Of a stretch of 64,000 nt of DNA, positions 6,844 to 35,050 are shown one piece after another. A program made the position numbers and the translations under genes. The notes beneath the pieces are model-generated. The model was not told the origin of the DNA. It saw only the letters and a program-made list of their open reading frames with translations, and searched no databases. Origin of the DNA: an uncultured archaeon (GTDB lineage: Archaea > Aenigmatarchaeota > Aenigmatarchaeia > CG10238-14 > SCSR01); assembly GCA_964512235.1 (NCBI GenBank), contig CAZEGD010000003.1:101-64100 (forward strand). Direction: 5' to 3'. Each line of letters starts with the position of its first letter. Within the stretch, counting starts at the first letter, position 1.

Positions 6844-6847
6844 TTAA

Positions 6848-11861: not shown

Positions 11862-11974
11862 TATTTAATTTCCTTAACTTCTTCTTCTCAGATTCTATGT
11901 TAATTCCCTTAGGACTTTTCCTCAATATTTTTTAACGATTTATGTCTTAAATCCAAAATTTAATCTAGGTTGAT

Positions 11975-14050: not shown

Positions 14051-14139
14051 GGCAATCCTCTGGATAATGATGACTACTATAAAGAATTTGTGTCGCCGTA
14101 GATAAATTTAATTAGGTATATGCAAGATGGTTGGAAAAA

Positions 14140-16380
14140 ATGGCAGTTGACTATAAAATTGAAGACGGTACAGCGAGAATAGACGCACGCAACTGGGTGA
14201 TAGAGCCAAGCATTGAGAATTCTGAGGCATGCATGGCCGTTGTCATTGACATATTGCAAGAATCGAAAAATATAGAGCGCATAGTTCTCGCGGAAGTGAG
14301 GGATGTGGAATACGACTTTGAGCAGACGCAATTGCTTGCAAGCATCGCTCGGGCACACAACAAAATATTGAATGAAGAAAAGCTGATGAGCATAGAAAAG
14401 CTCGGCCCGAGGGAGTGCTCGGTGCTGCTGCCCGCCAGGTTCAAGGAGCTGCAGTTCTTGATTCTGGAAGTCCTGCGCAAGGACCCGATAGGTGCCTACG
14501 TCAAAGTGAAGATGATGATAAACAAGGCACAGGAGAAGATGAAAAAGATGAAGATGAAACAGTGCTTCAAGCAGTACATAGATGAAGTGCTGATTCCGAT
14601 GAAAAATATACTGGAGTCTACAGAGATGATAAAGGCTGCACAGCCGTATCTACGCATCTTCAAATTCGGTGACCGCCGGATCTACAGGGAGCTGTTCAAG
14701 CCTGTGATCAGGCCAACATTCATGCTCACTCGCTACATGATCGTCCCACCAAAGGGAGGGAGGCTCATGGAAAAGTACAACATAGCAGCCAATACGACTG
14801 TAGAGATATTCAGCGTGCCAGGCAGGGTGAGGCACAGCTATTTCATAACCCCTCCAGAGTTCAGGTTGAGCGAAGAGAAGTATGCCGTGCTGGACATGGC
14901 GCGCCGGTATCTAGCAGAGCACAGGCCGAGCGAGACGGAGTTCGCAGACCCGGAGCGTGCGCGCGAGGTGTTTATGAACATAAGCCGCGACCTCATCGCT
15001 GACGTGTCAAGGTCGATGAATGTGATGCTTACTGTGAAAGAGATAGAAGAGCTCGCCGTGGTGCTGTCACGCTATACTGCAGGATTTGGTGTGCTTGAGC
15101 TGTTGCTTAGCGACGATAAGATACAGGATTTGTACATAAATTCGCCCATCGGGTTGACACCGATATATGTCTATCATTCAGATTTCGAGGAATGCATAAC
15201 AAACCTCATACCTACAAGGGAGGATGCAGAAGCTTGGGCGACCCGATTCAGGCTGTATTCTGGCAGGCCATTGGACGAAGCCAACCCAGTGCTTGACACT
15301 GAGCTGACAGTGCCTGGAGGGCGCGCACGTGTCGCAGCCATCACCCGCACACTAAGTCCTGAAGGACTGGCATTCACCCTACGCCGTCACCGCGAGAGGC
15401 CATGGACATTCCCACTTTTCATACAGAACAGGTTTATCGATCCGCTGTATGCAGGATTGATGAGTTTCATAGTCGATGGCGGCCGTGCAATATTGATAGC
15501 AGGCGGACGTAGCTCGGGGAAGACAAGCTTGCTAGGTGCGATGATGCTGGAGATATTGCGGAAGTTCAGGTTCATTGTGCAGGAAGATACTTTAGAGCTA
15601 CCTATAGTGTACATGCGAAAGCTAGGCTACAATGTCGAGCGGCTGAAGTCACGCTCCGTGATTACACAAATAGAGACTGAGCTGTCTGCTGATGAAGCTC
15701 TAAGGACAGCGCTCAGATTAGGAGATTCAGTCCTGATTCTGGGCGAAGTGCGCAGCGTAGAGGGCAAAGCATTGTTCGAAGCTATGCGCATAGGCGCGCT
15801 TGCAAATGTGGTCGCCGGTACAATACATGGTGAGTCTGCTTACGGAGTCTACGACCGTGTGGTGAATGATCTAGGAGTGCCGTCTACGAGCTTTAAAGCC
15901 ATAGATCTGATTACGATATGCAACATGCTGCACAGCCCGGACGGTCTGCATCGCTTCCGAAGAGTCGTTGCTTTGACAGAAGTGCGGAAGCACTGGAAGG
16001 ATGATCCTGGAGCAGAAGCCGGGTTTGTGAATCTCATGGAATATTCGGCAAAGGAAGACAGGATGAAGCCTACGGATACTTTGACTGACGGAGAGTCTGA
16101 GGTGCTTAATGAAATTGCAAAGCGCGTGCGTGAATGGCATGGTAGATGGGACGTAATGTGGGACAACATAATGCTGCGGACGAAGATAAAAGAGGCGATG
16201 GTGAAGTACTCTGAAAAATTCAATAGGCCAGATATGCTGGAGGCAGACTGGGTGCTTGACAGCAATGAAATGTTCCATTTGATATCCGACAAAGTGAAGA
16301 AGGAAGTCGGTGGATTGGATAGTAAGCTCATCTACAGCCGATGGGAAGATTGGTTCAAGAATAGGATAAAACAGAAGTAG
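14140..16380 (+). CDS. Type IV pilus/archaellum-family secretion ATPase (ArlI/FlaI-PilB/VirB11 superfamily) with a long N-terminal extension
   Basis: Walker A AGGRSSGKTS, Asp box IVQEDTLEL, Walker B ILGEVRSVEG, and His box GTIHGES. I placed the start at ATG 14140; the track uses an in-frame TTG at 14131. Confidence 0.9.
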   Translation: MAVDYKIEDGTARIDARNWVIEPSIENSEACMAVVIDILQESKNIERIVLAEVRDVEYDFEQTQLLASIARAHNKILNEEKLMSIEKLGPRECSVLLPARFKELQFLILEVLRKDPIGAYVKVKMMINKAQEKMKKMKMKQCFKQYIDEVLIPMKNILESTEMIKAAQPYLRIFKFGDRRIYRELFKPVIRPTFMLTRYMIVPPKGGRLMEKYNIAANTTVEIFSVPGRVRHSYFITPPEFRLSEEKYAVLDMARRYLAEHRPSETEFADPERAREVFMNISRDLIADVSRSMNVMLTVKEIEELAVVLSRYTAGFGVLELLLSDDKIQDLYINSPIGLTPIYVYHSDFEECITNLIPTREDAEAWATRFRLYSGRPLDEANPVLDTELTVPGGRARVAAITRTLSPEGLAFTLRRHRERPWTFPLFIQNRFIDPLYAGLMSFIVDGGRAILIAGGRSSGKTSLLGAMMLEILRKFRFIVQEDTLELPIVYMRKLGYNVERLKSRSVITQIETELSADEALRTALRLGDSVLILGEVRSVEGKALFEAMRIGALANVVAGTIHGESAYGVYDRVVNDLGVPSTSFKAIDLITICNMLHSPDGLHRFRRVVALTEVRKHWKDDPGAEAGFVNLMEYSAKEDRMKPTDTLTDGESEVLNEIAKRVREWHGRWDVMWDNIMLRTKIKEAMVKYSEKFNRPDMLEADWVLDSNEMFHLISDKVKKEVGGLDSKLIYSRWEDWFKNRIKQK

Positions 16381-16425: not shown

Positions 16426-16713
16426 ATGATTATGACTGGCAGAAAGGGTGCAATACCAATACCCTATATAATCGCCATAATTTTCGGGATAGTTGTAATT
16501 GCGATAATTGGCTACTGGTTCTTTACGACCGCCGGCGATATTGGCAGCGCTAGTCAACAAGCAGATTGTGAAACAGCATTGTTTGAATTCTGCATAAGCT
16601 GGATTAGAGAAGGAGAAGCTAATAAACCTTTTGATCATAAAGTAGTAGAAGATTGTGGACCTCTTGATATAGGTGTACCTACGTTTGCCCAATGCACAAG
16701 TGTCTATACCTAA
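16426..16713 (+). CDS. Class III signal peptide (type IV pilin-like) protein, 4 Cys
   Basis: N-terminus MIMTGRKG|AIPIPYIIAIIFGIVVIAIIGYWFF: a short basic leader, K-G, then about 22 hydrophobic residues. Confidence 0.8.
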   Translation: MIMTGRKGAIPIPYIIAIIFGIVVIAIIGYWFFTTAGDIGSASQQADCETALFEFCISWIREGEANKPFDHKVVEDCGPLDIGVPTFAQCTSVYT

Positions 16714-16789
16714 TAATTTAGGCATATCATAAACTCCTTTCAAACCAATTCTTAATACGGACAAAAGCCAAAACTATTTTTAGATATTG

Positions 16790-18742
16790 ATGGTCAGAAG
16801 AGTCTCTAGGGAATACGATGAATTCTTGCGCGGCAAAGTGGAAATCAAGCCCACTCTGTATAGCCAAGCGTGCAAATTTGCAGAGAAAATCCTGCCTATC
16901 CAACCGGGAAAGGATTTGAATAAAAGATACCAGGAAGCGATAAATTTCTCGCACTTGAATGTCACTCCAAAAGGCGCGTTTTCCCTTGCAATTCTAGCCC
17001 TGTTATTAGTCGCAATAATTCCAATAGTTTTAGCTATTCTCCTCGGTATGTTCACAATCGGCCTTGTGGCGATGGCAATGATTTTTGCCGGCGTCACATT
17101 CTACTACCTGTATGACTATCCTCTGCACCATTCCGTGATTTTCCGTATAAAGGCAAGCTCAGAGATGGTCCTAGCTATAGTCTATATGACAATAGCGATG
17201 CGCATATCTCCGAATTTGGAGAATGCAGTCAAGTTTGCAGCCCGCAGTCTTAGCGGACCACTCGCTACAGATCTAAAGCAACTCATATGGGACGTCTATA
17301 TGAGGAAATACGACTCTATGTCTGAAGCTTTGGACGCTTTCATAACCAAGTGGAAGGTCGAAAACAGGGAATTCACAGAAGCCATATACTTGATAAAGAA
17401 CTCTTCTATAGGAACCACTGCAAGAAGGGAGAGCGTGCTAGATGAGGCAGTCTCAGTCGTGCTTGAGGGTACAAAGGAGAGGATGAAGCACTACGCGCAG
17501 GATCTGAGAACACCAGTCACAATATTGAATGCGATGGGAATACTGTTGCCTCTCATAGGGCTTGTGTTTTTGCCGCTTGTAGGACTCTTTATGTCAGAGA
17601 TATTCCAGCCAGTCTTTATAATAGTGGGCTACAATGTGATACTTCCACTGTCCGTGTATTGGATGATGAAGACCACTCTTGAGAAGAGACCATATAGCTT
17701 CCACCAGCCAGACCTTTCAAGGCACCCGAAGTTCAGAAAAAAGAAGATTGACACAACACTCATCATCTCAATGCTAATTCCTCTACCCACTACGGTCTTT
17801 GGGTTCTACTATTTTATGACTATAAAAGAGATTTTCAGCAATACTCTGCTATACTGTTCGCTGATAACGCTGTCGGGAATAGTTGGTGGCATAGTATTCT
17901 ATTGCATAATGTCTACTTGGAAGAAACTGAAAATAAGGCAGGAGATTATTGAAATAGAGCAAGGATTTACTGAAGCACTGTTCCAGATTGGCAAGCAACT
18001 GCAGCGTGGTATACCTATAGAGAAAGCAATCGAAAGGTTTGTAATGAATATGAAGGACTTGAAGATTGCAAGGATGTTCGAAATGGTTCTTTACAACATA
18101 AAGACTTTTGGAATGACATTCGAGCAGGCGGTCTTCGATGAGGAAAGGGGTGCAATAAGACAATATCCGTCCAAGACCGTGGATGCCACAATGCGCGCAA
18201 TAGTCGAAATCTCCAAGAGAGGCATGAAAGTGGTCTCGAATGCGATGATATCAATATCGAGATATATGAAAGACGTGCATGTCGTGGAAGAGGACCTTAG
18301 AGACATGCTGTCCGAGACTACGTCCACTATGAACATACAAGCCCTCTTCCTAGCACCGTTGACATCTGGGATAGTGATATCGATTTCCGCAATAATGATG
18401 CAGATGCTGCTGTCGTTCAAGGGAATGCTAGAAAGCATACAGGACCAGCTGTTCGCCTCCGGCCCATCTGGGTTCATGAGCGGCGGGATACTGACGTCAG
18501 TCCTCAATATAAACAAGATGATACCTGTGCACATATTCCAGCTCATAGTGGGCATATACCTGATAGAAGTGGTAGCGATGCTCGCGATGTTTCTCAGCAA
18601 GATACAATACGGCGAAGAGAATCTGATAAGGACCTATAACATAGGCAAGATGCTCTTATTGGCTACAGTTATCTATATGCTTATCGCGTTTTCGCTCTAT
18701 TCGGTATTCACATCAATCATGCCGGTTTTAATCATGCAGTAA
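16790..18742 (+). CDS. Pilus/archaellum assembly membrane platform (ArlJ/FlaJ-TadC, T2SS-F-like)
   Basis: About 650-aa polytopic membrane protein with two cytoplasmic helical domains separated by TM clusters. It sits directly after the ATPase, which is the standard ATPase+platform pairing. Confidence 0.8.
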   Translation: MVRRVSREYDEFLRGKVEIKPTLYSQACKFAEKILPIQPGKDLNKRYQEAINFSHLNVTPKGAFSLAILALLLVAIIPIVLAILLGMFTIGLVAMAMIFAGVTFYYLYDYPLHHSVIFRIKASSEMVLAIVYMTIAMRISPNLENAVKFAARSLSGPLATDLKQLIWDVYMRKYDSMSEALDAFITKWKVENREFTEAIYLIKNSSIGTTARRESVLDEAVSVVLEGTKERMKHYAQDLRTPVTILNAMGILLPLIGLVFLPLVGLFMSEIFQPVFIIVGYNVILPLSVYWMMKTTLEKRPYSFHQPDLSRHPKFRKKKIDTTLIISMLIPLPTTVFGFYYFMTIKEIFSNTLLYCSLITLSGIVGGIVFYCIMSTWKKLKIRQEIIEIEQGFTEALFQIGKQLQRGIPIEKAIERFVMNMKDLKIARMFEMVLYNIKTFGMTFEQAVFDEERGAIRQYPSKTVDATMRAIVEISKRGMKVVSNAMISISRYMKDVHVVEEDLRDMLSETTSTMNIQALFLAPLTSGIVISISAIMMQMLLSFKGMLESIQDQLFASGPSGFMSGGILTSVLNINKMIPVHIFQLIVGIYLIEVVAMLAMFLSKIQYGEENLIRTYNIGKMLLLATVIYMLIAFSLYSVFTSIMPVLIMQ

Positions 18743-18907: not shown

Positions 18908-19135
18908 ATGGGGAATGATATGAAAAAAAGAAGAAAGGGAATTGCAATAGAGACTATAGTGTATTTGGTGCTTGCGATCGTGGGACTAATTGTTCTATGG
19001 GTTTTCCTTTCAGGTCTGGCCCCAGTAATCAAAACAACCGTAGAGGAGATAGTGAAGGGAATAGGCTGCAAGATATGCGAAATATTTGGGGTTGCCGGCT
19101 GGGTTCTTAGCGCATTTTGCAGGAACTGCCCATAA
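18908..19135 (+). CDS. Class III signal peptide (pilin-like) protein, 4 Cys
   Basis: MGNDMKKRRKG|IAIETIVYLVLAIVGLIVLWVFL. C-terminus CKICE...FCRNCP. Confidence 0.75.
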   Translation: MGNDMKKRRKGIAIETIVYLVLAIVGLIVLWVFLSGLAPVIKTTVEEIVKGIGCKICEIFGVAGWVLSAFCRNCP

Positions 19136-19161
19136 TAAGTAAAAGTTTCTTTGGACAAGAT

Positions 19162-19205
19162 AATCGACAGTTTTAATTCTAGGACTCGAAATAATAATTA
19201 TGGAA
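19162..19205 (+). repeat. Duplicated promoter/5' region, copy 1
   Basis: aatcgacagttttaattctaggactcgaaataataattatgga recurs at 19921-19964 with one mismatch. It includes the TTTTAAT TATA-like box and the ATG. Confidence 0.85.
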
Positions 19206-19865
19206 ATAAGAATGTCTGGGAGTAAAGGGGGAGGGATACCGACCAGGTGGATTGTCTTGGGATTTTTAGGTGTACTCGTCATATTGGGCATTTATGTAGT
19301 CTACGCGAAAGGTCATGAAATGTCTGGAGGTCTATTCGGTTTTTGGGACGACCTTTTTGGAGGAGGAGGACAAACGGGAGGAAAGACGGAGTTCGAGGCT
19401 GCCATAGAATGTGCTTATTACAGGTGCAAAGAGAACTGCCCGTATGCAATAACTAAAGCCGGAGCTGTCGGTGATTTTAATTGCCTAGATTATTGCAAAG
19501 AAGAATGGACTGATGACAATAGACGAATTTGTGATGGACATCCTATCGAAATACAGTTAAGTAGTGGTGAAACTATAGAGGCCAGTTGGTGGCGCCAGAT
19601 TACAGGGGGCTCCAACAATGCACTATCTCGATCGGACTGTATAGTGGACAGAATATATAGGTATAGCAATCTCAACCTAATTTTTCCAATAGACTCCTCA
19701 GAATGCAACATAGAAAGTGCTGGTGTAGATGGAATAATCTACAGCAGTTGCAAGTTGACATCAGATGGTACTTTTTACATATGGAGTGAAAAACACTATT
19801 GGCCAAATGAATGTACAGTTGGTGCTACTTGTATAGCTACCATAATTTGCGACAGGCAACCGTGA
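19200..19865 (+). CDS. Class III signal peptide protein, Cys-rich (12 Cys), paralog A
   Basis: MEIRMSGSKGGG|IPTRWIVLGFLGVLVILGIYVVY. It shares EFEAAIECAYYRCKENCPY with the next gene. Confidence 0.75.
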   Translation: MEIRMSGSKGGGIPTRWIVLGFLGVLVILGIYVVYAKGHEMSGGLFGFWDDLFGGGGQTGGKTEFEAAIECAYYRCKENCPYAITKAGAVGDFNCLDYCKEEWTDDNRRICDGHPIEIQLSSGETIEASWWRQITGGSNNALSRSDCIVDRIYRYSNLNLIFPIDSSECNIESAGVDGIIYSSCKLTSDGTFYIWSEKHYWPNECTVGATCIATIICDRQP

Positions 19866-19920
19866 AATATTTTGAGAATATAAATTTAGTCGATTTAGAC
19901 TCAATGATATGATAATTAAA

Positions 19921-19964
19921 AATCGACAGTTTTAATTCTAGAACTCGAAATAATAATTATGGAT
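19921..19964 (+). repeat. Duplicated promoter/5' region, copy 2
   Basis: See 19162-19205. The copies are 759 bp apart, which equals the tandem gene duplication unit. Confidence 0.85.
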
Positions 19965-20636
19965 ATAGAAACACCTAGAGGTAAAGGTGTCGCAATGAGA
20001 ACTATAGTTTTAGTCGCAATCGGCGTCGGCGGCTTGTTATTCGGTTTTATTATGCTTACAGGAATCGGAGATGCTAGGGAAAATATAATTGACATCCTCC
20101 TTGGTTTAGGTAGCTCTGCTAAAGGACCATCAAAATTGGAAGTGGCAATAGAATGTGCTTATTACAGATGTAAAGAGGGATGTCCACATGGTGCTGAGAA
20201 TGTTGAAATTATCGATGGTTTTGAGTGTTTAAAATTCTGCGACGAAGCAGTAGTCAATAGTGTTGATAGCAATGGAGACAAGAAAATATGCGGCTCCGAG
20301 TCCAGAGATTATCCGGTAACAATCTCGATAGAGGCAAGTTATGTGCATACTAACACGATTGATGATGCTGGCTCCGAGCTGAGCTCGATCGTAGAATTTA
20401 ACGAAGAAACCGTAGGCTGTGAAAACTTCAGGCCGTCATATGCATATCTATATGTAACTAGGTCAATGATAGTCGACGGAAAAACAGAGATCTGTCCTAC
20501 ACGCAATATGGCCTATGGTGGATACAACTGCTACGATAATGTTAAAGTAGCCGCAGGAGATTACTCTATTTGGGTACATAACATCTATGTTCTTGGCGTA
20601 TACGTCGGTACATCGCCTATAGTCTGCATGGGATAG
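19959..20636 (+). CDS. Class III signal peptide protein, Cys-rich (10 Cys), paralog B
   Basis: MDIETPRGKG|VAMRTIVLVAIGVGGLLFGFIML, followed by KLEVAIECAYYRCKEGCPH. Confidence 0.75.
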   Translation: MDIETPRGKGVAMRTIVLVAIGVGGLLFGFIMLTGIGDARENIIDILLGLGSSAKGPSKLEVAIECAYYRCKEGCPHGAENVEIIDGFECLKFCDEAVVNSVDSNGDKKICGSESRDYPVTISIEASYVHTNTIDDAGSELSSIVEFNEETVGCENFRPSYAYLYVTRSMIVDGKTEICPTRNMAYGGYNCYDNVKVAAGDYSIWVHNIYVLGVYVGTSPIVCMG

Positions 20637-20737
20637 TTCCATAAAAGTTTCTACAACTTTAGTGGAAATTAATAATTTTATTCAAGACTAACCTTTAAAA
20701 AGAAGGAATTGAAAATAAGATATAGGTGATAGGTAGA

Positions 20738-21061
20738 ATGATGAAAAAAGGAATAGCAGTTCCTTACATTATTGCCCTTATTCTGGGAATAGTAGTTGTA
20801 GCTCTGCTAGGTTACTGGTTCTTCATACTAGGTGGAACTTTCACCGGTAGAGCTTCAATCACAGAGTGCCAGACCAAATTGAGTACATACTGTGCTGCAT
20901 TCGCAGCTTCAGGCTATGACACAGCAGCGTTCGATCCCTTTACTAGTAGCACTTGCCCAGCAAGCGGTACAGTAGACGCCCCTGAATGTTGCTCACACTA
21001 TAGCTCTCTAATGACTGGTGCTAGCTGGACAGCCACTTGCACGAATTTAATAGGGCAGTAA
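20738..21061 (+). CDS. Class III signal peptide (pilin-like) protein, 6 Cys; paralog of 16426
   Basis: MMKKG|IAVPYIIALILGIVVVALLGYWFF. GGTGA lies 7 nt upstream of ATG 20738; the track starts at an in-frame GTG at 20726. Confidence 0.8.
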   Translation: MMKKGIAVPYIIALILGIVVVALLGYWFFILGGTFTGRASITECQTKLSTYCAAFAASGYDTAAFDPFTSSTCPASGTVDAPECCSHYSSLMTGASWTATCTNLIGQ

Positions 21062-21075
21062 AATAAAGTGGAAAT

Positions 21076-21282
21076 ATGAAAGGTAGTATACCAGTTCCTT
21101 ATTTAATAGCCATAATACTAGCTGTAGTCGTTATAGTTGTGCTTGTCTACATGTATCTTTCTGAAAGCGGATTATTCTCTCAAGTAATTGATGAGAAATA
21201 TTGCCAGGCAAAGTGTATGGAATGCAAAGCGACAGGGGGTTCAATGCCACCTGAGTGCATTGATTATCCTTGTGACCTGTAG
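21076..21282 (+). CDS. Class III signal peptide (pilin-like) mini-protein, 5 Cys
   Basis: MKG|SIPVPYLIAIILAVVVIVVLVYMYL. The mature part is only about 40 aa and contains CQAKCMECK...ECIDYPC. Confidence 0.75.
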   Translation: MKGSIPVPYLIAIILAVVVIVVLVYMYLSESGLFSQVIDEKYCQAKCMECKATGGSMPPECIDYPCDL

Positions 21283-21332
21283 CTGTTGACAACCAGACTA
21301 ACATCTAAATAAAATAAAAAGAAATATAGTTT

Positions 21333-21650
21333 ATGAAGGTCAAGCCAGCTACTACGGATTCTAAAGGCGTAGCAGTTCACACAATCGTAATAGTTATGAT
21401 ATTCGGGATTATGATGCTAATCCTTCTACTGGTATTTTCAGAATATCTTGGAATACAGAACTGCGAGGCTGCAAGGATGGCCTGCTCGACTGCTAGGGCG
21501 TCACACTGCTTCAGTTGGTGGAAAAACGACAATAGCTTTAGCTCTGGCGAGCCTGATTGGGAGAACATAAACGACTGCGACGATACCGGATTGGTGAGTT
21601 GTGACAAACCCGACAGGTCAGAATGCTTAGACTTGATATTCAGCGATTAA
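21333..21650 (+). CDS. Class III signal peptide (pilin-like) protein, 6 Cys
   Basis: MKVKPATTDSKG|VAVHTIVIVMIFGIMMLILLLVF. Confidence 0.7.
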   Translation: MKVKPATTDSKGVAVHTIVIVMIFGIMMLILLLVFSEYLGIQNCEAARMACSTARASHCFSWWKNDNSFSSGEPDWENINDCDDTGLVSCDKPDRSECLDLIFSD

Positions 21651-21706: not shown

Positions 21707-22162
21707 ATGAGCCAAAAGGGAGACGCTACCATAAGCGTTCTCGGTACAGCTGTAATTATGGCCATCATGGTCATCTTTGTTGCAAACATCGTCCCAGATT
21801 ATGTAGTGTCTGCATTCGAGTTTATGAGCTCATCCTCGGCCGAGGTAGTCTCTAGGAATTTAGCAGGTTTTATAACAATAAGTGCGGCAGCTCCGAATGA
21901 AATCAGCATCGATTACTTTGCATCTAAAAGCAGTGAGTACAATGTGAAGATTGAGAACAGAGTTATAAATCTAGACCTGTTGTCCGCGAGCTTCGGCGCG
22001 AAAGGAGGTTCCATCACAAAAGCGGGTATAGACTCTATCTGCTATTATACGGACACTATCTGCAGATTCGACGGGGTAAATCACTTCACCATAAAGAAAT
22101 GGTCGGATGAGGACGGTTACATTTGTAATGTCAACGGTGAGATGAGTCTGAATGAAGATTGA
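21707..22162 (+). CDS. Class III signal peptide (pilin-like) protein
   Basis: MSQKG|DATISVLGTAVIMAIMVIFVANIV. Overlaps the next gene by 11 nt. Confidence 0.7.
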   Translation: MSQKGDATISVLGTAVIMAIMVIFVANIVPDYVVSAFEFMSSSSAEVVSRNLAGFITISAAAPNEISIDYFASKSSEYNVKIENRVINLDLLSASFGAKGGSITKAGIDSICYYTDTICRFDGVNHFTIKKWSDEDGYICNVNGEMSLNED

Positions 22163-22808
22163 CTGCTCTAAAAGAAGTAAAGGAATCGGAGATTTAGTAC
22201 CCTATGCGATTATGGCTTTACTGATTATAGGTGTAGTTGTAATCTTCTACATTCTCATGATGACAAAGTTTTTGGATATTAGAACAATTGTAATGGAAGC
22301 CGGTGTCGAAAGACATACCCTAAATTTGGCCCAAGTATTGCTGAGCTATGACAAGCTCGTGTATGTGGAAGAAGACTATTTCAGCATACATAGAGGTATA
22401 TTTGTCAAAGAAAAGCTCGATGAGCAATTCAAAGACGGTAGCGAACTTACAAATGAACTCGGCTATCCAGATTCTGTAATCCTATTGTATGTAAAAGATT
22501 TCGATGCTAACAAGGAATGGGCTCTAAGATACAAAGGCCCTTTCAACTTGGAAGGTTCTAAAGCAGCAAGTTTCATAGAATGTCTGAACGAGAAGACAGA
22601 ATTCGATGTCATACTTTTGTTTCAAATGATACTCTCACCTATTTCACATGTTGGCCCATGGGACTATTACACCATCGCTGAGTGCACATCATCGTTCGCT
22701 TCAGACTATGGAACCTCTGTTAGGAGGTTCCCAGTCGCAATCAAAGATGGAAATGAAATACACGCTGGTATATTGGTAGTTACAATTGACGAATGGACTT
22801 TGATCTAA
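22152..22808 (+). CDS. Class III signal peptide (pilin-like) protein
   Basis: MKIDCSKRSKG|IGDLVPYAIMALLIIGVVVIFYILMM. Overlaps the next gene by 16 nt. Confidence 0.7.
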   Translation: MKIDCSKRSKGIGDLVPYAIMALLIIGVVVIFYILMMTKFLDIRTIVMEAGVERHTLNLAQVLLSYDKLVYVEEDYFSIHRGIFVKEKLDEQFKDGSELTNELGYPDSVILLYVKDFDANKEWALRYKGPFNLEGSKAASFIECLNEKTEFDVILLFQMILSPISHVGPWDYYTIAECTSSFASDYGTSVRRFPVAIKDGNEIHAGILVVTIDEWTLI

Positions 22809-23293
22809 TGAAATACAATAATTTGAAAATTAAAGGGAGAAAGGGAATTGCACCCATTATCATAATCCCAATACTTTTAGCACTGATTACATTCTCAGCA
22901 GTAATCATTGCAGTAATGCCAATCATATTCCTCAAAGTCAACCTAGTCCAGATGATTACATTTGAATATAACTACAACAACGCGCAGCTGGCTCTGAATA
23001 CATTGCTCTCTCTAACGAAGACAGACACGACAGACGGTCAGGTAAAGCCTGTCTATAAAATTATCTCAGAGTATGTGTCATTGCCGCAAAAGCCAAATAT
23101 ACTTTTTCTGAGGGTCGAGCTTAACAGGATGGTAAATAATGGAATATTCAAGTGCTACAAGCTCACATCCCAGACAGCTGGCGAGCTGGCAAGGGGAAGT
23201 TGCGATCCCACTAGTGATGGTGAATATTACAAAGCAGTTTCACCTGTTTTAACACCTACATTCGTAGATAGACTGGAGTTGATGGTGGATTGA
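22793..23293 (+). CDS. Class III signal peptide (pilin-like) protein
   Basis: ...LKIKGRKG|IAPIIIIPILLALITFSAVIIAVMPIIF. Its stop overlaps the TTG start of the giant gene (ATTGA). Confidence 0.7.
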   Translation: MDFDLMKYNNLKIKGRKGIAPIIIIPILLALITFSAVIIAVMPIIFLKVNLVQMITFEYNYNNAQLALNTLLSLTKTDTTDGQVKPVYKIISEYVSLPQKPNILFLRVELNRMVNNGIFKCYKLTSQTAGELARGSCDPTSDGEYYKAVSPVLTPTFVDRLELMVD

Positions 23294-26200
23294 GAGCTAG
23301 AGCAAAGAAAAGAAGCAAAGGCCTAATAGTGGCGGCCATACTCGTCATAGCAGCTATTGCTATCGCTGGTGCAGGCATTTACTACTCCAATTTCATCTAT
23401 AGAGTCCAGACTACAGTGGAGATAGTGAAAGAGGCCACAATTGTAGAAGCGATAAACTATGTAGAGATGCTGAAGATAGGGCTACGTAACGCTGTAGGAT
23501 ATTCTGTCTATAGGGCATCGGATGACGTTTTGACTCTGGGCGGAATCTGCGAGCACAGCCTGCAATCCTCAGAGTCGGGATATTGCACAGAAGATTGCAA
23601 GATACCGGCAGGCACTCCAACATTCGAGTGTACTCCCTGGTGGAAGGTCCATGATAAAATATACGCCCCCACGAAAGGGGAATTCATGGAATATATGACT
23701 AACAGAACGCTCCAGAACTTTGAAGGATATGCGAATATGCTCGAAGTCCAAGACCTTGAGGTACCGAACTACTGTCCCCCTCTGGGAAGAGACTGTAGCG
23801 GGTGCTTGACAGATTCAGAATGTCCAGAAGGCTGCAACGGCTTAAGAGAGACTGGCGGAGTTGCCACCATAGAATCAACAAAAAGTTTAGACCCCGAAAT
23901 AAAAACAAAGATGGAGAGCAAGAATGACTATTTGAAGAATGAAAAAATAGAATACGAACGCGACTTCTTCACAGTAGCTGACAATTCATCTTTCACGGAC
24001 ACCGTCAAAGCCACTACTTTTTCACTGTTTGACTTTGCAAGAGACAAATTTATAGAGAATGACTATATCTCCCAAGTATTTGATCAGGGAGACGAGCCCA
24101 TGCCGAACACATGGTGTGCCATGACAGCAGATAACTACTGTGATGTAACCTCGGATTGTCGTCAGGACACAAACAACTGTTGGAATGGTGACTGTTGCTG
24201 TAAAGGCATCTATTACGGCAACGTATGTTTAGATGAATTGCCAAACTGTGAAGCAGGACTGGATCAATACTGTAAAAGAGACTATACAGGCACGACTTGC
24301 ATGGAAGCAGACTCTAATTGCGACAATACAATATCAGCGAAGGAATATTACAACTATACTGTGAAAGGACAGTTGTCGATAGACGAAGATGAGACTGATG
24401 CATATGGAAATAAATTCAGGGTAAAAACGGCTCTTGATGGATGCATAGAAGTTGGCACTGAATCTACACAGACATACAGTGAAATCGTGGAAGTGAATTG
24501 GTATGACTACGATCCTGTCGCAGACCAAGCAGACTGTGACGTGATTACAGCAGAAGGGTGTGGATGCGGAGAATACTGCACTGCATCTGATCCGGAATGC
24601 GGGGATTGTATAGGGATAACTCCTGGCATCTTCGATGGACCGTGTCCATGGGAGACGCTGAGCTGTCCAGATGAATGTTGTGGTCTGGAATGGGAATGTA
24701 TAGAATGGGAAGAACCAGGTCCGTGTGAAGAGCCTGAAGAAACAGATATTGCCGTAGAAGCTAACTTTCAATATCTCGTGCTTGCAGAAAGCCCTGTCTG
24801 TACAGATTCAGATGGCGGTGCCAATAACCTAGTCTATGGTTGCTGTGAATATGGTACAGACACTTATTGTGACTATTGTGATGGTACCAATGTTGTCGAA
24901 TACTATTGTTCACCTGTGATTAACCCAACACATTGCGGCTCTATAACTCACGGCTGTGTAGGGTGGTATGGTGCTGGTGCTACCTGCTCAGGTGGGAAAT
25001 GTATAGAACCTACGACCACAACCACAACTACACTTCCCCCTGTCTGTACAGATTCAGATGATTGTCCAGCCATAGATACAGATGGAGGCTATAACCTATA
25101 TGAGAAAGGTACTTGTTCATGGAGAATTTGTGATAGTGATCATAACTGTAAAGTTACTTACACTCAAACAGATTCTTGTATCAGTAGCACTAAAGTTTAT
25201 GAAATGCGTCCAGGCTCTCCAGTTAACTATTGCGATGGAGAAACAGAAAATTGCCCTTCTGGTACCATATGTTCAGATGGCGCTTGTGTTGAAACAACTA
25301 CAACAACCACCACGACTACCACAACACTTCCAGCGACATGTATAAATCATAATGAATGCTCTCAAGCGTGTACAGATCTATGTCCTTATATGGTATACGG
25401 TTGCTGCTACGGCTGTATGCTAGGTCAATGTATAGGTGGTACATGCCAGTGCATAGAGAAACCCACATATTGCTCAGGCAGTCCTATTTCTCAAGTCGGC
25501 AGTCAATGTATAGTTGGTCCAGTTTGCTCTGATATAGGATTAGGCACACCTTCTGTCAGTCCCTCAACCCCAACAGCTGGCAGCACATTCCAAATATCAT
25601 GCCCTGTCACTCAGGTAGGAGCAGACTGTATAGCAGCATATGCCAATGATATGAGCTCTAGGTGTAATTACACTCATTGGTCAGGCAATAACGCTGTTTT
25701 TAACTGTCCAGGTCTAGCAGCAGGTACTTATACTGCAAGGTGTACTTCCCAGACAGAAACCCCCAGCAATTGTTGTTATGATACAACAACAACATCTTAT
25801 GCTACAATAACACCTACACACGACATAGTAGTCGGTGTCACACAGGGCTCTGGAGCGGTAAATGTCGCTATAAATGGTATCCCAGTCCAGACTGTCACTG
25901 AAGCATCAACAGCCACAATCACGTTCGAGCACGGAGATAGTGCATCATTTGAAGCAATCCCATCATCAGGTTATACGCTAGAGAGCTATTGCGGCTGGGT
26001 CACTGATGGTGAGGTTGTATGTTGCACACCAGATGAGTGCCCTTCACCACTCATAAGACCAATTTGGGAAAGTGGTGGACTATATGTTAACTTTGTTGCA
26101 AGTGTAACATGTACTAAACATGAAATTAGGTTGGAATGTAGGGATTCTATCTGCGGCTTCCCAGGCTGTTGTAAAAAAGCCGCTTATATGAAAGATGTCA

Positions 26201-26709
26201 AGTGCGAATATGACTATGTGGGTACTGCTAATTTGAGCGTAGAAGTGTCGGATATGGCACACAAGTACCCGATAGGCACCGAAACAAAGAACCTGAAACT
26301 GCCTTTCTACATAGCTTCTGGCAATACATTAGAAGAAGATTTGCTATGCGGTGCTTCTACGACGGACGACGATCCGAATACGGAAGAAGTTGAATTCCCA
26401 CAATGGCAAGACTGCAAAGAACCCTATAAACATGAAATAACGGTTAGTGTTTCTAGCGGATTTGGAACAGTTGACATCTATAGAAATGACGAATTCATCG
26501 GAAAAGCCACCGAAGTAATATCGTTTATAGTCCAATTCAGCTCCGAAGACATTGCAAAATTTGTAGCGACTCCCTCAACAGGGTATAGTTTTGAGAGCTG
26601 GTGCGGAGATGATGATTGCTGTTCGCCACCGGACCCAGAATGCGGCCCTACCATTTCAAGGACAATTAATGCAGATGGTAATCTATATGCCAACTTCGAG
26701 TCAGTTTAG
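23290..26709 (+). CDS. Giant (1139 aa) Cys-rich surface protein with a pilin-like class III N-terminus, poly-Thr linkers and two C-terminal B-repeat-like modules (putative pilus-borne adhesin)
   Basis: TTG start; RARAKKRSKG|LIVAAILVIAAIAIAGAGIYY. Thr7 run at 25012-25032 and Thr11 run at 25294-25326. Repeated PVCTDSDGG/PVCTDSDDC Cys modules. Internal duplication between 25819-26103 and 26431-26706. Confidence 0.85.
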   Translation: MRARAKKRSKGLIVAAILVIAAIAIAGAGIYYSNFIYRVQTTVEIVKEATIVEAINYVEMLKIGLRNAVGYSVYRASDDVLTLGGICEHSLQSSESGYCTEDCKIPAGTPTFECTPWWKVHDKIYAPTKGEFMEYMTNRTLQNFEGYANMLEVQDLEVPNYCPPLGRDCSGCLTDSECPEGCNGLRETGGVATIESTKSLDPEIKTKMESKNDYLKNEKIEYERDFFTVADNSSFTDTVKATTFSLFDFARDKFIENDYISQVFDQGDEPMPNTWCAMTADNYCDVTSDCRQDTNNCWNGDCCCKGIYYGNVCLDELPNCEAGLDQYCKRDYTGTTCMEADSNCDNTISAKEYYNYTVKGQLSIDEDETDAYGNKFRVKTALDGCIEVGTESTQTYSEIVEVNWYDYDPVADQADCDVITAEGCGCGEYCTASDPECGDCIGITPGIFDGPCPWETLSCPDECCGLEWECIEWEEPGPCEEPEETDIAVEANFQYLVLAESPVCTDSDGGANNLVYGCCEYGTDTYCDYCDGTNVVEYYCSPVINPTHCGSITHGCVGWYGAGATCSGGKCIEPTTTTTTTLPPVCTDSDDCPAIDTDGGYNLYEKGTCSWRICDSDHNCKVTYTQTDSCISSTKVYEMRPGSPVNYCDGETENCPSGTICSDGACVETTTTTTTTTTTLPATCINHNECSQACTDLCPYMVYGCCYGCMLGQCIGGTCQCIEKPTYCSGSPISQVGSQCIVGPVCSDIGLGTPSVSPSTPTAGSTFQISCPVTQVGADCIAAYANDMSSRCNYTHWSGNNAVFNCPGLAAGTYTARCTSQTETPSNCCYDTTTTSYATITPTHDIVVGVTQGSGAVNVAINGIPVQTVTEASTATITFEHGDSASFEAIPSSGYTLESYCGWVTDGEVVCCTPDECPSPLIRPIWESGGLYVNFVASVTCTKHEIRLECRDSICGFPGCCKKAAYMKDVKCEYDYVGTANLSVEVSDMAHKYPIGTETKNLKLPFYIASGNTLEEDLLCGASTTDDDPNTEEVEFPQWQDCKEPYKHEITVSVSSGFGTVDIYRNDEFIGKATEVISFIVQFSSEDIAKFVATPSTGYSFESWCGDDDCCSPPDPECGPTISRTINADGNLYANFESV

Positions 26710-31246: not shown

Positions 31247-31253
31247 TTTCTCA

Positions 31254-34932: not shown

Positions 34933-35050
34933 TGGGGTCGGAGGGATTTGAACCCCCACTAGCCGGTATCACCCTATCATCTTGGAATCAACGCTCCAAT
35001 TACATATAAGTCTGGAGCCGGATGTCCTAGCCAGGTTAGACTACGACCCC
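34933..35050 (-). tRNA. tRNA-Trp (CCA) with an intron of about 44 nt (about 34968-35011)
   Basis: GGGGUCG / D-arm / UCCGG-CUCCAG[intron]A-CCGGC / GGGGG-UUCAAAU-CCCUC / CGACCCC-A. One mismatch (27:43) in the anticodon stem under my parse. Confidence 0.8.

What the first reader, a model, noticed from the sequence alone, without database searches (positions are those of the whole stretch)
23290..26709. A 1139-aa protein fuses a prepilin-type N-terminus to Cys-knot-like modules, poly-Thr linkers and duplicated B-repeat-like domains
The gene starts at a TTG that overlaps the previous stop (ATTGA) and encodes RARAKKRSKG|LIVAAILVIAAIAIAGAGIYY. It could therefore be processed and incorporated like a pilin, but it carries more than 1100 aa of cargo. 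The cargo contains repeated modules starting PVCTDSDGG and PVCTDSDDC, each ending in ...C-[IV]-E-(P)-T(n)-LP. The Thr runs have 7 residues (25012-25032) and 11 residues (25294-25326) and are probably O-glycosylated stalk linkers. Two C-terminal modules are related to each other. The first is 25819-26103 (HDIVVGVTQGSGAVNVAINGIPVQ...FEAIPSSGYTLESYCGW...LYVNFVAS). The second is 26431-26706 (HEITVSVSSGFGTVDIYRNDEFIG...FVATPSTGYSFESWCGD...LYANFESV). Their pattern V..G.G.V...G....A.P..GY.F..W resembles the divergent InlB B-repeat (Flg_new_2) type of bacterial surface proteins. A giant pilin-anchored adhesin at the end of a minor-pilin operon would be the functional analogue of bacterial tip adhesins. 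I am not aware that such a protein has been characterised in archaea.
Basis: partly seen in the sequence, partly recalled or inferred. Interest (0 to 1): 0.75.

Follow-up and report, generated by a model that had tools for sequence, protein, structure and literature searches.

The report
Giant cargo-carrying pilin-like protein, DPANN archaeon
The last gene of a type IV pilus operon in a tiny, probably symbiotic archaeon (Aenigmatarchaeota) encodes a pilin-like protein from a previously undescribed family, here swollen to 1139 residues by inserted cysteine-rich and surface-protein modules, and it probably displays these at the pilus tip for attachment.

Summary
This covers the 1139-aa ORF, the TTG start in ATTGA, the KG|hydrophobic N-terminus, the two CTDSD modules, the T7 and T11 runs, and two related Flg_new_2-like modules (37% identity; Pfam 29.4 bits against a cut-off of 23.6).

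The interpretation needs correcting. The protein is not a short pilin stub carrying more than 1100 aa of cargo. About 560 aa (residues 1-481 and 939-1047) form a conserved family core. That core has no Pfam or NCBIfam model and no fold match in PDB or BFVD, although AlphaFold models it with high confidence (a 74-residue N-terminal helix and an alpha/beta head). About 457 aa of cargo are nested inside this core, and one Flg_new_2 domain follows it.

The family has 106 hits among 1.84 billion representative proteins. In the five related operons examined by gene table it lies at or next to the 3' end of an Aenigmatarchaeota operon of ATPase, platform and pilin genes. Relatives carry other cargo, including murein hydrolases and a polysaccharide lyase. 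In one relative the neighbouring pilin-like gene carries a cellulase.

The best reading is an archaeal counterpart of bacterial modular or tip minor pilins. Signal-peptide cleavage, filament incorporation, tip location and adhesion are inferred, not shown.

The parts
14131..16380 (+). Type IV filament assembly ATPase (749 aa), first gene of the operon
   Evidence: Pfam T2SSE E 4.1e-11. NCBIfam TadA-family E 2.4e-34 and FlaI E 8.8e-34. It is 56-72% identical to orthologs in 21 Aenigmatarchaeota or uncultured-archaeon MAG loci.
16426..16713 (+). Small pilin-like protein (95 aa; RKG|AIPIPYIIAIIFG...). It is one of three paralogs and a probable major pilin.
   Evidence: Sequence. Orthologs are present in related loci. 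The role as major pilin is inferred.
16787..18742 (+). Polytopic platform protein (651 aa, about 9 transmembrane segments)
   Evidence: The window protein itself has no Pfam hit, but 8 of 13 orthologs hit T2SSF PF00482, best E 2e-6.
18908..21650 (+). Six further pilin-like genes with [KR]G followed by a hydrophobic N-terminus: 18908-19135, 19200-19865, 19959-20636, 20726-21061, 21076-21282 and 21333-21650
   Evidence: Translations and pattern scan. All have orthologs in related loci. ORFs 19200 and 19959 are Cys-rich paralogs.
21707..23293 (+). Three pilin-like genes whose ends overlap each other and the target: 21707-22162, 22152-22808 and 22793-23293. Together with the target they form a conserved four-gene set.
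   Evidence: Overlaps of 11, 16 and 4 nt. Orthologs of all three are kept next to the family member in L001, L009 and L017 (L010 and L014 lack a detected 22793 ortholog; in L005 two of them lie just downstream). Their role as a minor-pilin complex is inferred.
23290..23322 (+). Predicted class III signal leader, M1-G11 (MRARAKKRSKG), with cleavage predicted after G11
   Evidence: K10 and G11 are invariant in close homologs. 87 family members show the same [KR]G followed by about 20 hydrophobic residues. Cleavage itself is not shown.
23314..23535 (+). Single long N-terminal helix (residues 9-82). Residues 12-32 are the hydrophobic alpha1N-like segment.
   Evidence: AlphaFold2 helix H9-82 with block pLDDT 78-98. 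The core-only relative P0013 has the same helix, H6-81.
23290..24732 (+). N-terminal part of the conserved family core (residues 1-481), including a Cys-rich middle segment at 276-481
   Evidence: 57-59% and 41% identity to P0001-P0003. A profile of this part finds 106 proteins among 1.84 billion representatives. pLDDT is about 90-98 except for residues 276-302. No Pfam or NCBIfam hit.
24733..26103 (+). Nested cargo insertion (residues 482-938), absent from core-only relatives
   Evidence: Insertion length is 479 aa in the target against a family median of 1. P0013 and P0018 have 0-1 residues at this site. pLDDT is mostly 25-60.
24793..25011 (+). Module A1 (residues 502-574), a six-Cys 'CxD[ST]DGG...EYYC...C..G..C..G.C' repeat unit
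   Evidence: Homologous repeats occur in 31 secreted proteins or lipoproteins of DPANN archaea, those carrying names being Micrarchaeota or Bilamarchaeaceae. Aligned with 148 repeat units.
25012..25032 (+). Thr7 linker (residues 575-581), followed by LP
   Evidence: mixed ACN codons. O-glycosylation is inferred only.
25039..25293 (+). Module A2 (residues 584-668), a second unit of the six-Cys repeat carrying extra insertions
   Evidence: 70% identical to the same module in P0001 and absent from P0002. Aligned with the repeat family.
25294..25326 (+). Thr11 linker (residues 669-679), followed by LP
25333..25524 (+). Module B (residues 682-745), very Cys-rich and seen only in this protein
   Evidence: No aligned counterpart in P0001-P0003. 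No Pfam hit. pLDDT below 35.
25525..25818 (+). Module C (residues 746-843), an all-beta module that may be Ig-like
   Evidence: 59% identical to P0001 and P0002. Strands predicted at pLDDT 53-77. No Pfam hit.
25819..26103 (+). Internal Flg_new_2-like module (residues 844-938)
   Evidence: 37% identical to the C-terminal copy. Pfam scores 17.8 bits for this copy alone, below the cut-off. 54% identical to the single C-terminal copy of P0001.
26104..26430 (+). Closing segment of the family core (residues 939-1047), with the motif C.YDY.GTA..SV.V.D....YPI......L.LPFY..SGN
   Evidence: Conserved in all four close homologs and across the family. pLDDT 83-98 over residues 940-1020. F1006 is nearly invariant.
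26431..26709 (+). C-terminal Flg_new_2 domain (residues 1048-1139) and stop codon
   Evidence: Pfam PF18998 scores 24.4 bits alone and 29.4 bits for the whole protein, against a cut-off of 23.6. pLDDT 67-83.

Best explanation
The gene encodes the largest known member of a previously undescribed family of pilin-like proteins. Members lie at or next to the 3' end of the type IV filament operon of Aenigmatarchaeota (DPANN archaea).

Proposed mechanism:
1. A prepilin-type (class III) peptidase encoded elsewhere in the genome cleaves after Gly11.
2. The hydrophobic start of the 74-residue N-terminal helix first holds the protein in the membrane. It then docks into the helical core of the filament built by the ATPase (14131-16380) and the platform (16787-18742).
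3. The protein is bulky and its gene overlaps the ends of three preceding pilin-like genes. By analogy it assembles with them into a priming complex that ends up at the distal tip, like bacterial GspK, CofB/TcpB and the modular pilins PilB and PilC.
4. There it exposes its cargo: two six-Cys repeat units on Thr-rich stalks, one further Cys-rich module, one beta module and two Flg_new_2 domains. This cargo is nested inside and appended to a conserved alpha/beta head.
5. The cargo probably binds a partner cell or surface.

Shown here: the sequence anatomy, the family, the operon context, the nested architecture and the modular turnover.
Inferred: cleavage, incorporation into the filament, tip position, adhesion and glycosylation.
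For: 1. N-terminus. The [KR]G motif followed by about 20 hydrophobic residues is invariant in close homologs and general across 87 family members, many of which begin simply MKG or MRKG. Ten preceding operon genes have N-termini of the same form.
2. Helix. AlphaFold2 predicts a single helix over residues 9-82 at pLDDT 78-98, followed by a confident alpha/beta head. The core-only relative P0013 gives mean pLDDT 91.6 and pTM 0.85 with the same layout.
3. Machinery. The T2SSE/FlaI-TadA ATPase and the T2SSF platform, identified through its orthologs, lie upstream on the same strand.
4. Position. In L001, L027 and L028 the family member is the last gene of the same operon; in L005 two pilin-like genes and in L029 one further same-strand gene lie downstream of it. 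It is also the last clear same-strand gene at L009, L010 and L014. It often overlaps the preceding gene by 4 nt.
5. Conservation. All 13 operon genes are conserved across the Aenigmatarchaeota loci taken together.
6. Swappable cargo. Close relatives lack A1, B and the internal Flg_new_2 copy. More distant members carry SLT, Amidase_2, NlpC/P60, Peptidase_M15_4, a polysaccharide lyase or a dockerin after the same core.
7. A second carrier. In L027 the neighbouring pilin-like gene, an ortholog of window 22793-23293 (E 5e-13), carries a Pro-rich linker, a cellulase and a beta-helix.
8. Cargo modules occur elsewhere in secreted proteins. The six-Cys repeat is found in DPANN lipoproteins and secreted proteins, and Flg_new_2 is a surface-protein module.
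9. Precedents. Bacterial modular pilins are proposed to sit at the tip (PMC8179133, PMC9934059). Interchangeable minor-pilin tips are described for Myxococcus (PMC12075869). Functionalised archaeal type IV filaments have been hypothesised (bioRxiv 10.64898/2026.04.22.720090).
Against: - No prepilin peptidase (Peptidase_A24) gene was found in the 64-kb window, so cleavage cannot be argued from context.
- No Pfam or NCBIfam pilin or class III signal model matches the target or its operon neighbours.
- The globular head matches no solved pilin or any other structure. Foldseek against PDB gives best E 0.066 and TM about 0.1; BFVD gives best E 2.8e-3 at probability 0.12; a sequence profile against PDB finds nothing.
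- The conserved Glu about 20 residues after the cleavage site, seen in most family members, is missing from the target.
- No cargo module has a demonstrated binding function, and the nested cargo is modelled at low confidence.
- N-glycosylation sequons are not enriched: 5 against 8.8 +/- 2.7 expected.
- The same anatomy fits an uncleaved signal anchor.
Confidence: 0.55

Rival explanations
1. The protein is a membrane-anchored surface protein and not a filament subunit. The N-terminal hydrophobic segment would act as an uncleaved signal anchor, or be cleaved but kept in the membrane. The protein would stay at the cell surface at the base of the machine, as a stator, anchor or alignment component comparable to archaellum FlaF/FlaG or bacterial PilN/PilO. 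Its modules would project from the cell envelope.
For: - A single transmembrane segment followed by a long helix and an alpha/beta domain is also the layout of bitopic assembly proteins (model).
- The head resembles no solved pilin.
- No peptidase gene lies in the window.
- Strict conservation of the core, with one copy per operon, would suit a machine part.
Against: - The cytoplasmic leader is only 2-15 residues and ends in the [KR]G typical of class III cleavage sites, in the same form as in the operon's small pilins. PilN/PilO-type proteins have no such motif (from general knowledge).
- A machine part would not be expected to tolerate cargo as variable as murein hydrolases, a lyase, adhesin-type repeats and 0-480 aa insertions.
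- The neighbouring pilin-like gene also takes cargo.
Confidence: 0.2
2. The operon builds a short pseudopilus or bindosome-like display scaffold and not a long adhesive pilus. Its minor subunits, including this one, would be carriers that hold binding modules and enzymes just outside the envelope, for substrate capture and degradation and not for cell-cell adhesion.
For: - Relatives carry enzymes on the same carrier or on the neighbouring one: a polysaccharide lyase, a cellulase with a beta-helix, murein hydrolases and a dockerin.
- Sulfolobus sugar-binding proteins use class III signals and the Bas system, and a recent survey proposes functionalised type IV filaments for scavenging (bioRxiv 10.64898/2026.04.22.720090).
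Against: - The target carries no enzyme or solute-binding domain.
- The operon holds three small paralogous pilins that look like major filament subunits.
- No ABC transporter lies next to the operon.
- This rival overlaps with the best explanation, since the carrier principle is the same.
Confidence: 0.2
3. The protein is an S-layer or cell-sheath component, or a secreted Cys-rich protein, that merely happens to be encoded next to the pilus genes.
For: - It is large, acidic and rich in Cys and Thr, with repeat modules shared with secreted DPANN proteins.
- Earlier surveys could not always tell adhesins from S-layer proteins in such loci (PMC4858521).
Against: - The position at or next to the end of the operon, with overlapping gene ends in several loci, is kept across distant relatives.
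- Most family members are only 280-450 aa, too small and too few per genome for a lattice protein.
- The N-terminus is of the prepilin type and not a Sec signal or a C-terminal anchor.
Confidence: 0.05

Closest known systems
Bacterial modular type IV pilins (Streptococcus sanguinis PilB with a vWA module, PilC with a lectin module; PMC8179133, PMC9934059)
   Same: Both have a class III-type N-terminus and a pilin-like module carrying modules that are not specific to pilus biology. Both are minor, low-copy subunits encoded in the pilus operon. Cargo differs widely between relatives, and both are proposed to sit at the tip.
   Different: This protein is archaeal, with a KG| leader and no N-methylation motif or Glu5. 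Its carrier module is about 560 aa here (about 280 aa in minimal members) with a head of no recognisable fold, whereas the bacterial carrier is a small canonical pilin. Most cargo is nested inside the carrier and not appended through a C-terminal linker. At 1139 aa it exceeds the 860-residue extreme reported in the bacterial survey.
Large tip or initiator minor pilins: T2SS GspK, and type IVb CofB and TcpB (PMC5207764; discussed in PMC8179133)
   Same: Each is the largest pilin-like protein of its operon and is encoded with a small set of other minor pilins. GspK also has a domain inserted into the pilin head, and CofB has beta-rich C-terminal domains.
   Different: No sequence or fold similarity was detected. 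The role in priming assembly is untested here.
Adhesin-like proteins and cargo proteins with class III signals predicted in archaeal type IV filament loci (Makarova et al. 2016, PMC4858521; Sivabalasarma & Albers 2026, bioRxiv 10.64898/2026.04.22.720090), including Sulfolobus bindosome sugar-binding proteins
   Same: Both are archaeal proteins larger than ordinary pilins, with prepilin-type signals, encoded in or used by type IV filament systems. Many are Cys-rich.
   Different: The described cases involve DUF2341/PilY-like, Ig-rich 'hook-like' or solute-binding proteins. This family has none of those domains. It occurs in an Aenigmatarchaeota operon that the held papers do not describe.
Myxococcus Kil (Tad) pili with interchangeable minor-pilin 'Tips' (PMC12075869)
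   Same: Sets of minor pilins expose variable domains at the filament end, and different variable domains suit different targets.
   Different: That system is bacterial and works with a T3SS-like apparatus. Here the variation is seen between genomes and not as alternative tip sets within one genome.
Flg_new_2 / InlB B-repeat domains of bacterial surface proteins (PF18998; PMC8900821)
   Same: The C-terminal module passes the Pfam cut-off, and the internal module is its paralog.
   Different: The hits are borderline (24.4 and 17.8 bits). Both copies carry extra Cys pairs (CC..P..C). No ligand is known for this divergent type.

Membership tests
Type IV filament subunit with class III (prepilin-type) signal, archaeal form | Short basic leader ending in [KR]-G, directly followed by about 20 hydrophobic residues | tested here: met
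   The N-terminus is MRARAKKRSKG|LIVAAILVIAAIAIAGAGIYY. K10 and G11 are invariant in close homologs, and the same pattern holds across 87 family members. KGLIVA fits the FlaFind-type pattern [KRDE][GA][ALIFQMVED][ILMVTAS]x3, which I recalled from memory and did not check against a source.
Type IV filament subunit with class III (prepilin-type) signal, archaeal form | Cleavage by a dedicated aspartic prepilin peptidase (Peptidase_A24: PibD, FlaK or EppA) | not testable with these tools
   No A24 hit among the 10 membrane ORFs scanned, and no GxGD-type motif in the other membrane ORFs of the window. The rest of the genome is not available.
Type IV filament subunit with class III (prepilin-type) signal, archaeal form | Extended N-terminal alpha-helix (alpha1) starting at the cleavage site | tested here: met
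   AlphaFold2 predicts H9-82 in the target at pLDDT 78-98 and H6-81 in P0013.
Type IV filament subunit with class III (prepilin-type) signal, archaeal form | Globular head resembling solved pilins or archaellins | tested here: not met
   Foldseek of a high-confidence core model (pLDDT 91.6) against PDB gives best E 0.066 and TM about 0.10, with no pilin among the 50 best matches listed. The full-length model gives best E 0.2. A sequence profile against PDB finds nothing. Pilin heads are very variable, so this weakens membership but does not exclude it.
Type IV filament subunit with class III (prepilin-type) signal, archaeal form | Encoded together with a T2SSE-family ATPase and a T2SSF/TadC/FlaJ-family platform | tested here: met
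   ATPase. The platform is identified through 8 of 13 orthologs hitting PF00482. All are on the same strand, and the order is conserved in relatives.
Type IV filament subunit with class III (prepilin-type) signal, archaeal form | Physical incorporation into the filament | not testable with these tools
   This needs filament purification with proteomics, or immuno-EM or cryo-ET.
Modular pilin (sensu Raynaud et al. 2021, PMC8179133) | A pilin module plus at least one module that is a domain not specific to pilus biology | tested here: met
   Flg_new_2 PF18998. The six-Cys repeat is shared with non-pilin secreted DPANN proteins. Relatives carry SLT, Amidase_2, NlpC/P60, M15, Polysacc_lyase or Dockerin on the same core.
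Modular pilin (sensu Raynaud et al. 2021, PMC8179133) | Extra module grafted onto the C-terminal end of the pilin module through a short linker | tested here: inconclusive
   This holds for the C-terminal Flg_new_2 domain and for enzyme cargo in relatives. However, 457 aa of the target's cargo is inserted between the core's N-terminal part and its closing strands.
Flg_new_2 (PF18998, divergent InlB B-repeat) | Score at or above Pfam's gathering cut-off (23.6 bits) | tested here: met
   The whole protein scores 29.4 bits and the C-terminal copy alone 24.4 bits. The internal copy alone scores 17.8 bits, below the cut-off, but is 37% identical to the C-terminal copy.
GspK / CofB / TcpB-type tip or initiator minor pilins | Sequence or fold similarity to these proteins | tested here: not met
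   No PDB sequence hit at E up to 1 or 10 and no Foldseek hit. Only the positional and architectural analogy remains.
PilY1/PilC-type or DUF2341-type non-pilin tip adhesins | PilY1 beta-propeller or DUF2341 domain | tested here: not met
   The Pfam scan of the target at E up to 1 returns only Flg_new_2.
   The modules have six conserved Cys but are modelled at pLDDT 25-60. There is no Pfam or PDB match. Disulfide topology is unknown.

The most novel reading that the evidence does not exclude
Aenigmatarchaeota may have a lineage-specific, new-fold 'carrier' minor pilin, together with at least one neighbouring minor pilin, that serves as a general socket for interchangeable cargo at the end of a type IV filament. 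Cargo would be adhesive repeat modules in this genome and murein hydrolases, a polysaccharide lyase and a cellulase in relatives. This would be an archaeal pilus tip armed for attaching to, and in some lineages enzymatically attacking, partner cells (including bacteria) or polymers. The nested-insertion design would be unlike any bacterial modular pilin.
Probability: 0.35. Interest if true: 0.75.

Novelty: new variant of a known kind. Interest (0 to 1): 0.6.

Why it matters
DPANN archaea such as Aenigmatarchaeota have small genomes. All cultivated DPANN archaea depend on direct contact with a host cell (10.1101/2023.02.24.529834), yet how most lineages recognise and hold on to partners is unknown. 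In the analogous ultrasmall bacteria (Saccharibacteria), type IV pili drive episymbiosis (PMC9894109, PMC11623550).

This locus gives a concrete and testable candidate. It is a conserved operon whose terminal subunit is a fast-evolving cargo carrier. The modules differ even between relatives with 55-57% core identity, which is the pattern expected of a host-range determinant.

The family also extends the 'modular pilin' principle to archaea. It adds a confidently modelled domain with no structural neighbour in PDB or BFVD. It also shows enzymes, including murein hydrolases, fused to pilin-like carriers in archaeal contigs, which raises the possibility of interactions with bacteria.

The general concept (adhesin-like or cargo proteins with class III signals in archaeal type IV filament loci) has already been proposed. 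The advance is therefore a new family and architecture, not a new principle.

Tried and rejected
1. Whole-protein searches of Pfam, NCBIfam and PDB sequences found only Flg_new_2.
2. The word-seeded homolog search with the 87-sequence full-length alignment was swamped by low-complexity words and returned only P0001 and P0002. That search was wasted.
3. The first genome-contig scan, using patterns from the close-homolog alignment, found no relative. This was a false negative caused by over-specific patterns. Scanning with the ATPase brought in 21 Aenigmatarchaeota or uncultured-archaeon loci, several of which encode family members.
4. The exact-sequence look-up of the target showed it is not on record.
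5. Foldseek of the full-length model and of the core-only model against PDB, and of the core against BFVD, gave no significant match. The hoped-for link to GspK, CofB or archaeal pilins was not obtained.
6. The search for a prepilin peptidase in the window by Pfam and by motif found none.
7. The platform protein alone gave no Pfam hit, and a PDB profile search was negative. Only scanning its orthologs revealed T2SSF.
8. Self-BLAST of the whole protein printed no internal repeats. Pairwise comparison of the excised modules was needed.
9. I considered replication slippage as the source of the poly-Thr runs. I rejected it because the codons are mixed and the tandem-repeat score is weak.
10. I considered the GTG at codon 14 as an alternative start. 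I rejected it because the KG motif upstream of it is conserved.
11. Enrichment of N-glycosylation sequons, as support for a glycoprotein, was not found.

Full report
OBSERVATION

The ORF 23290-26709 (+) is real and encodes 1139 aa. Its TTG start is the first possible start after an in-frame TAG at 23269-23271. It overlaps the TGA stop of the upstream ORF within ATTGA. The N-terminus is MRARAKKRSKG followed by LIVAAILVIAAIAIAGAGIYY. The motif positions (PVCTDSDGG at residue 502, PVCTDSDDC at 584), the Thr7 run (25012-25032) and the Thr11 run (25294-25326) are as stated, and the Thr codons are mixed.

The two C-terminal modules are 37% identical (E 2e-17). Pfam assigns Flg_new_2 (PF18998) at 29.4 bits for the whole protein, above the 23.6-bit cut-off. 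Scanned alone, the C-terminal copy scores 24.4 bits and the internal copy 17.8 bits. The protein has 90 Cys (7.9%) and 10.6% Thr, and is strongly acidic.

ORGANISM AND OPERON

The window carries an archaeal SRP RNA. It also holds Alba, an AMP phosphorylase, a RuBisCO large subunit (catalytic and N-terminal domains), an IF-2B-family gene and PCMT just downstream of the target.

The first gene of the operon (14131-16380) is a T2SSE/TadA/FlaI-family ATPase. It is 56-72% identical to genes in 21 MAG loci. Those that carry a name are all Candidatus Aenigmatarchaeota. The window is therefore from a DPANN archaeon of that group.

The 651-aa protein with about 9 transmembrane segments (16787-18742) has no Pfam hit of its own. 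However, 8 of 13 orthologs match T2SSF (best E 2e-6), so it is the platform.

Ten further genes between 16426 and 23293 all start with [KR]G followed by a hydrophobic stretch. Three of them (16426, 20726, 21076) share KG|xxPxPYxIA and are probably the major pilins; this is an inference. The last four genes (21707, 22152, 22793 and the target) overlap one another by 11, 16 and 4 nt. All 13 genes have orthologs in related loci. No prepilin peptidase gene was found in the window.

THE FAMILY

A word-seeded search of 5.8 billion proteins found only three homologs, P0001-P0003. The target itself is not on record.

A full HMMER search of 1.84 billion representatives, using the N-terminal 481 residues as a profile, found 106 proteins at E up to 1e-3 and 21 at E up to 1e-30. 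They are 105-998 aa long.

Nearly all of these begin with a short leader ending in [KR]G or KG, followed by about 20 hydrophobic residues. There is often an EG or EA pair about 20 residues later, which the target lacks.

Short members (280-450 aa) end with the motif C.YDYYGTA..V.V.D....YP......L.L.FYV.SGN. In the target this motif lies at residues 972-1012. The family core therefore consists of residues 1-481 plus 939-1047, and residues 482-938 are an insertion nested within it.

Partitioning 87 aligned members shows a minimal core of about 280-300 aa with 0-4 Cys. There are two expansion sites: the middle/insertion region and the C-terminus. The target is the extreme case, with a 479-aa insertion against a median of 1 and a total length of 1139 aa against a median of 405. 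No member's core matches any Pfam family, and the target has no NCBIfam match.

STRUCTURE

AlphaFold2 on the full protein with the 87-sequence alignment gives mean pLDDT 66 and pTM 0.60. The confidence is sharply divided:
- A single helix over residues 9-82 and an alpha/beta head (residues 20-275, 305-480 and 940-1030) at pLDDT about 90-98.
- The insertion at 25-60.
- The C-terminal Flg_new_2 domain at 67-83.

P0013 is a 424-aa relative that has the same core with no insertion and ends like the target's residue 1047. It gives mean pLDDT 91.6 and pTM 0.85 with the same layout, including two roughly 20-residue beta-hairpins.

Foldseek finds no significant neighbour for either model in PDB (best E 0.2 and 0.066, TM about 0.1) or for the core in BFVD. 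A sequence profile against PDB finds nothing. The N-terminal helix is pilin-like, but the head has no detectable known fold.

CARGO

Modules A1 (residues 502-574) and A2 (584-668) belong to a repeat of about 65 aa with six conserved Cys (CxD[ST]DGG...D.C...EYYC...C..G..C..G.C). The repeat forms tandem arrays in 31 retrieved secreted proteins or lipoproteins. Those that carry names are Micrarchaeota or Bilamarchaeaceae (also DPANN), and some also have Kazal domains. In all, 148 repeat units aligned with A1 and A2. The repeat has no Pfam model, its fold is unknown, and nothing supports a cystine knot.

Module B (682-745) was found only in the target. Module C (746-843) is all-beta and is shared with P0001 and P0002 at 59% identity.

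Close relatives differ in module content. P0001 has A2, C and one Flg_new_2 domain. P0002 lacks A2. P0003 replaces the C-terminus with Pro- and Cys-rich repeats. The target's internal Flg_new_2 copy is closer (54%) to the single C-terminal copy of P0001 than the target's own C-terminal copy is (41%). Position and descent therefore do not coincide.

More distant members carry SLT, Amidase_2, NlpC/P60, Peptidase_M15_4, Amidase_6, a polysaccharide lyase or a dockerin after the same core, often behind Thr-rich linkers.

CONTEXT OF RELATIVES

In the five relatives examined by gene table, the family member lies at or next to the end of an ATPase-platform-pilins operon. In L001, L027 and L028 it is the last same-strand gene; in L005 two pilin-like genes and in L029 one further gene follow it. 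It usually overlaps the preceding gene by 4 nt, and the operon is often followed by Alba and PCMT. These relatives are P0003 (L001-L004), P0087 with SLT and Amidase_2 (L005), P0011 (L027), P0031 (L028) and P0055 (L029). Family members also lie downstream of the ATPase in several MAG loci.

In L027 the preceding gene is the ortholog of window 22793-23293 (E 5e-13). It is 1444 aa long and consists of a pilin-like N-terminus, a Pro-rich linker, a cellulase and a beta-helix. Cargo grafting is therefore a property of this operon's minor subunits and not of one gene.

INTERPRETATION

The best-supported reading (confidence 0.55) is a class III-processed minor pilin-like carrier. It would join the filament through its N-terminal helix. 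Because of its bulk and its coupling to three other minor pilin-like genes, it would sit in a tip complex and expose its cargo there.

The sequence features, the family, the operon context, the nested architecture and the modular turnover are shown by the results above. Cleavage, incorporation, tip location, adhesion and O-glycosylation of the Thr runs are inferred.

Three rival readings remain:
- A membrane-anchored envelope or assembly component (0.2).
- A bindosome-like display scaffold for binding modules and enzymes (0.2), which overlaps with the main reading.
- An unrelated S-layer or secreted protein (0.05).

COMPARISON WITH WHAT IS KNOWN

The closest functional analogs are bacterial modular pilins (PilB and PilC of S. 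sanguinis, PMC8179133 and PMC9934059). That survey covered bacteria only, and its largest case was 860 residues. Other analogs are the large tip or initiator minor pilins GspK, CofB and TcpB, and the interchangeable minor-pilin tips of Myxococcus Kil pili (PMC12075869).

In archaea, large adhesin-like proteins and cargo proteins with class III signals in type IV filament loci have been predicted (PMC4858521; bioRxiv 10.64898/2026.04.22.720090). This core family, its nested architecture and the Aenigmatarchaeota operon were not found in the held literature.

Membership as a type IV filament subunit is met for the signal form, the helix and the operon context. It is not met for head-fold similarity, and it is untestable for cleavage and incorporation. 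Membership in Flg_new_2 is met, though only marginally.

VERDICT

The finding is a new variant of a known kind: an archaeal modular pilin-like carrier with a head of unrecognised fold, nested cargo, and the largest size seen in its family. Interest is 0.6. It is a good and testable candidate for a DPANN partner-attachment determinant and a new protein family. The underlying principle is already in the literature, and every functional step is still inferred.

Noticed in passing
L027:5652-9986 (ortholog of window 22793-23293): In a related operon the penultimate pilin-like gene is 1444 aa long. It has a pilin-like N-terminus (E 5e-13 to the window's 166-aa protein), a Pro-rich linker, then Cellulase (PF00150) and beta-helix or pectate-lyase-like domains. 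A second minor subunit of this operon type therefore also carries cargo.
   Followed up: partly
L005:10001-12280 (P0087); also P0043, P0079, P0011, P0048: Some family members in archaeal contigs (with Alba, GGR and UbiA neighbours) carry bacterial-type murein hydrolase domains after the pilin-like core: SLT, Amidase_2, NlpC/P60 and Peptidase_M15_4. Others carry a polysaccharide lyase or a dockerin. This raises the possibility that some Aenigmatarchaeota act on bacterial cell walls.
   Followed up: partly
window 23290-23400 compared with family N-termini: Most family members have a conserved EG or EA pair about 20 residues after the predicted KG| cleavage site, inside the hydrophobic helix. The target, P0001 and P0002 have G/A-G there instead. 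Its meaning is unknown. It might be a counterpart of bacterial Glu5.
   Followed up: no
window 25819-26103 compared with 26431-26706: The internal Flg_new_2 copy is 54% identical to the single C-terminal copy of P0001 and P0002. The target's own C-terminal copy is only 41-44% identical to it. Module position and module ancestry therefore disagree, which could reflect rearrangement or unequal divergence.
   Followed up: partly
window 26706-28763 (-): A convergent 685-aa gene has a zinc-ribbon motif (residues 66-90) and about 3 transmembrane segments, and its stop overlaps the target's stop by 4 nt. A gene of 441-718 aa lies on the opposite strand at the same position in L001, L005, L027 and L028; its homology to the window gene was not tested. 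Function is unknown.
   Followed up: no
window 19200-19865 and 19959-20636: Two Cys-rich pilin-like paralogs (31% identity, E 1e-16) share the motif AIECAYYRCKE.CP. Their counterparts in other loci range from about 250 to about 830 aa, so this is a second size-variable component of the operon.
   Followed up: partly
window 16426-16713, 20726-21061, 21076-21282: Three small paralogous pilins share KG|(A/I/S)(I/V)P(I/V)PY(I/L)IA and are probably the major filament subunits. One of them lies between the ATPase and platform genes, unlike in most related loci.
   Followed up: partly
P0108-P0138 (Micrarchaeota / Bilamarchaeaceae proteins): A tandem repeat of about 65 aa with six Cys (CxD[ST]DGG...EYYC...C..G..C..G.C) is widespread in these proteins. 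It occurs in DPANN secreted proteins and lipoproteins, sometimes together with Kazal inhibitor domains, and most of the retrieved proteins carry no precomputed Pfam domain.
   Followed up: partly
window 5596-8708 (-) and 10977-12826 (+): Two clusters of multi-pass membrane proteins of similar size (155-294 aa). The three scanned against Pfam (5596-6231, 10977-11861, 11975-12826) had no match.
   Followed up: no
window 29696-33286 (-): A cluster of AMP phosphorylase, RuBisCO large subunit and an IF-2B-family gene (possibly ribose-1,5-bisphosphate isomerase). This resembles the archaeal AMP salvage pathway and is syntenic with L001 and L027.
   Followed up: yes
window 34933-35050, 48025-48118, 56086-56173: Rfam finds tRNAs of unusual length (118, 92 and 87 nt). 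ARAGORN misses the first and cannot name the anticodon of the last. They probably contain introns, as is common in DPANN archaea.
   Followed up: no
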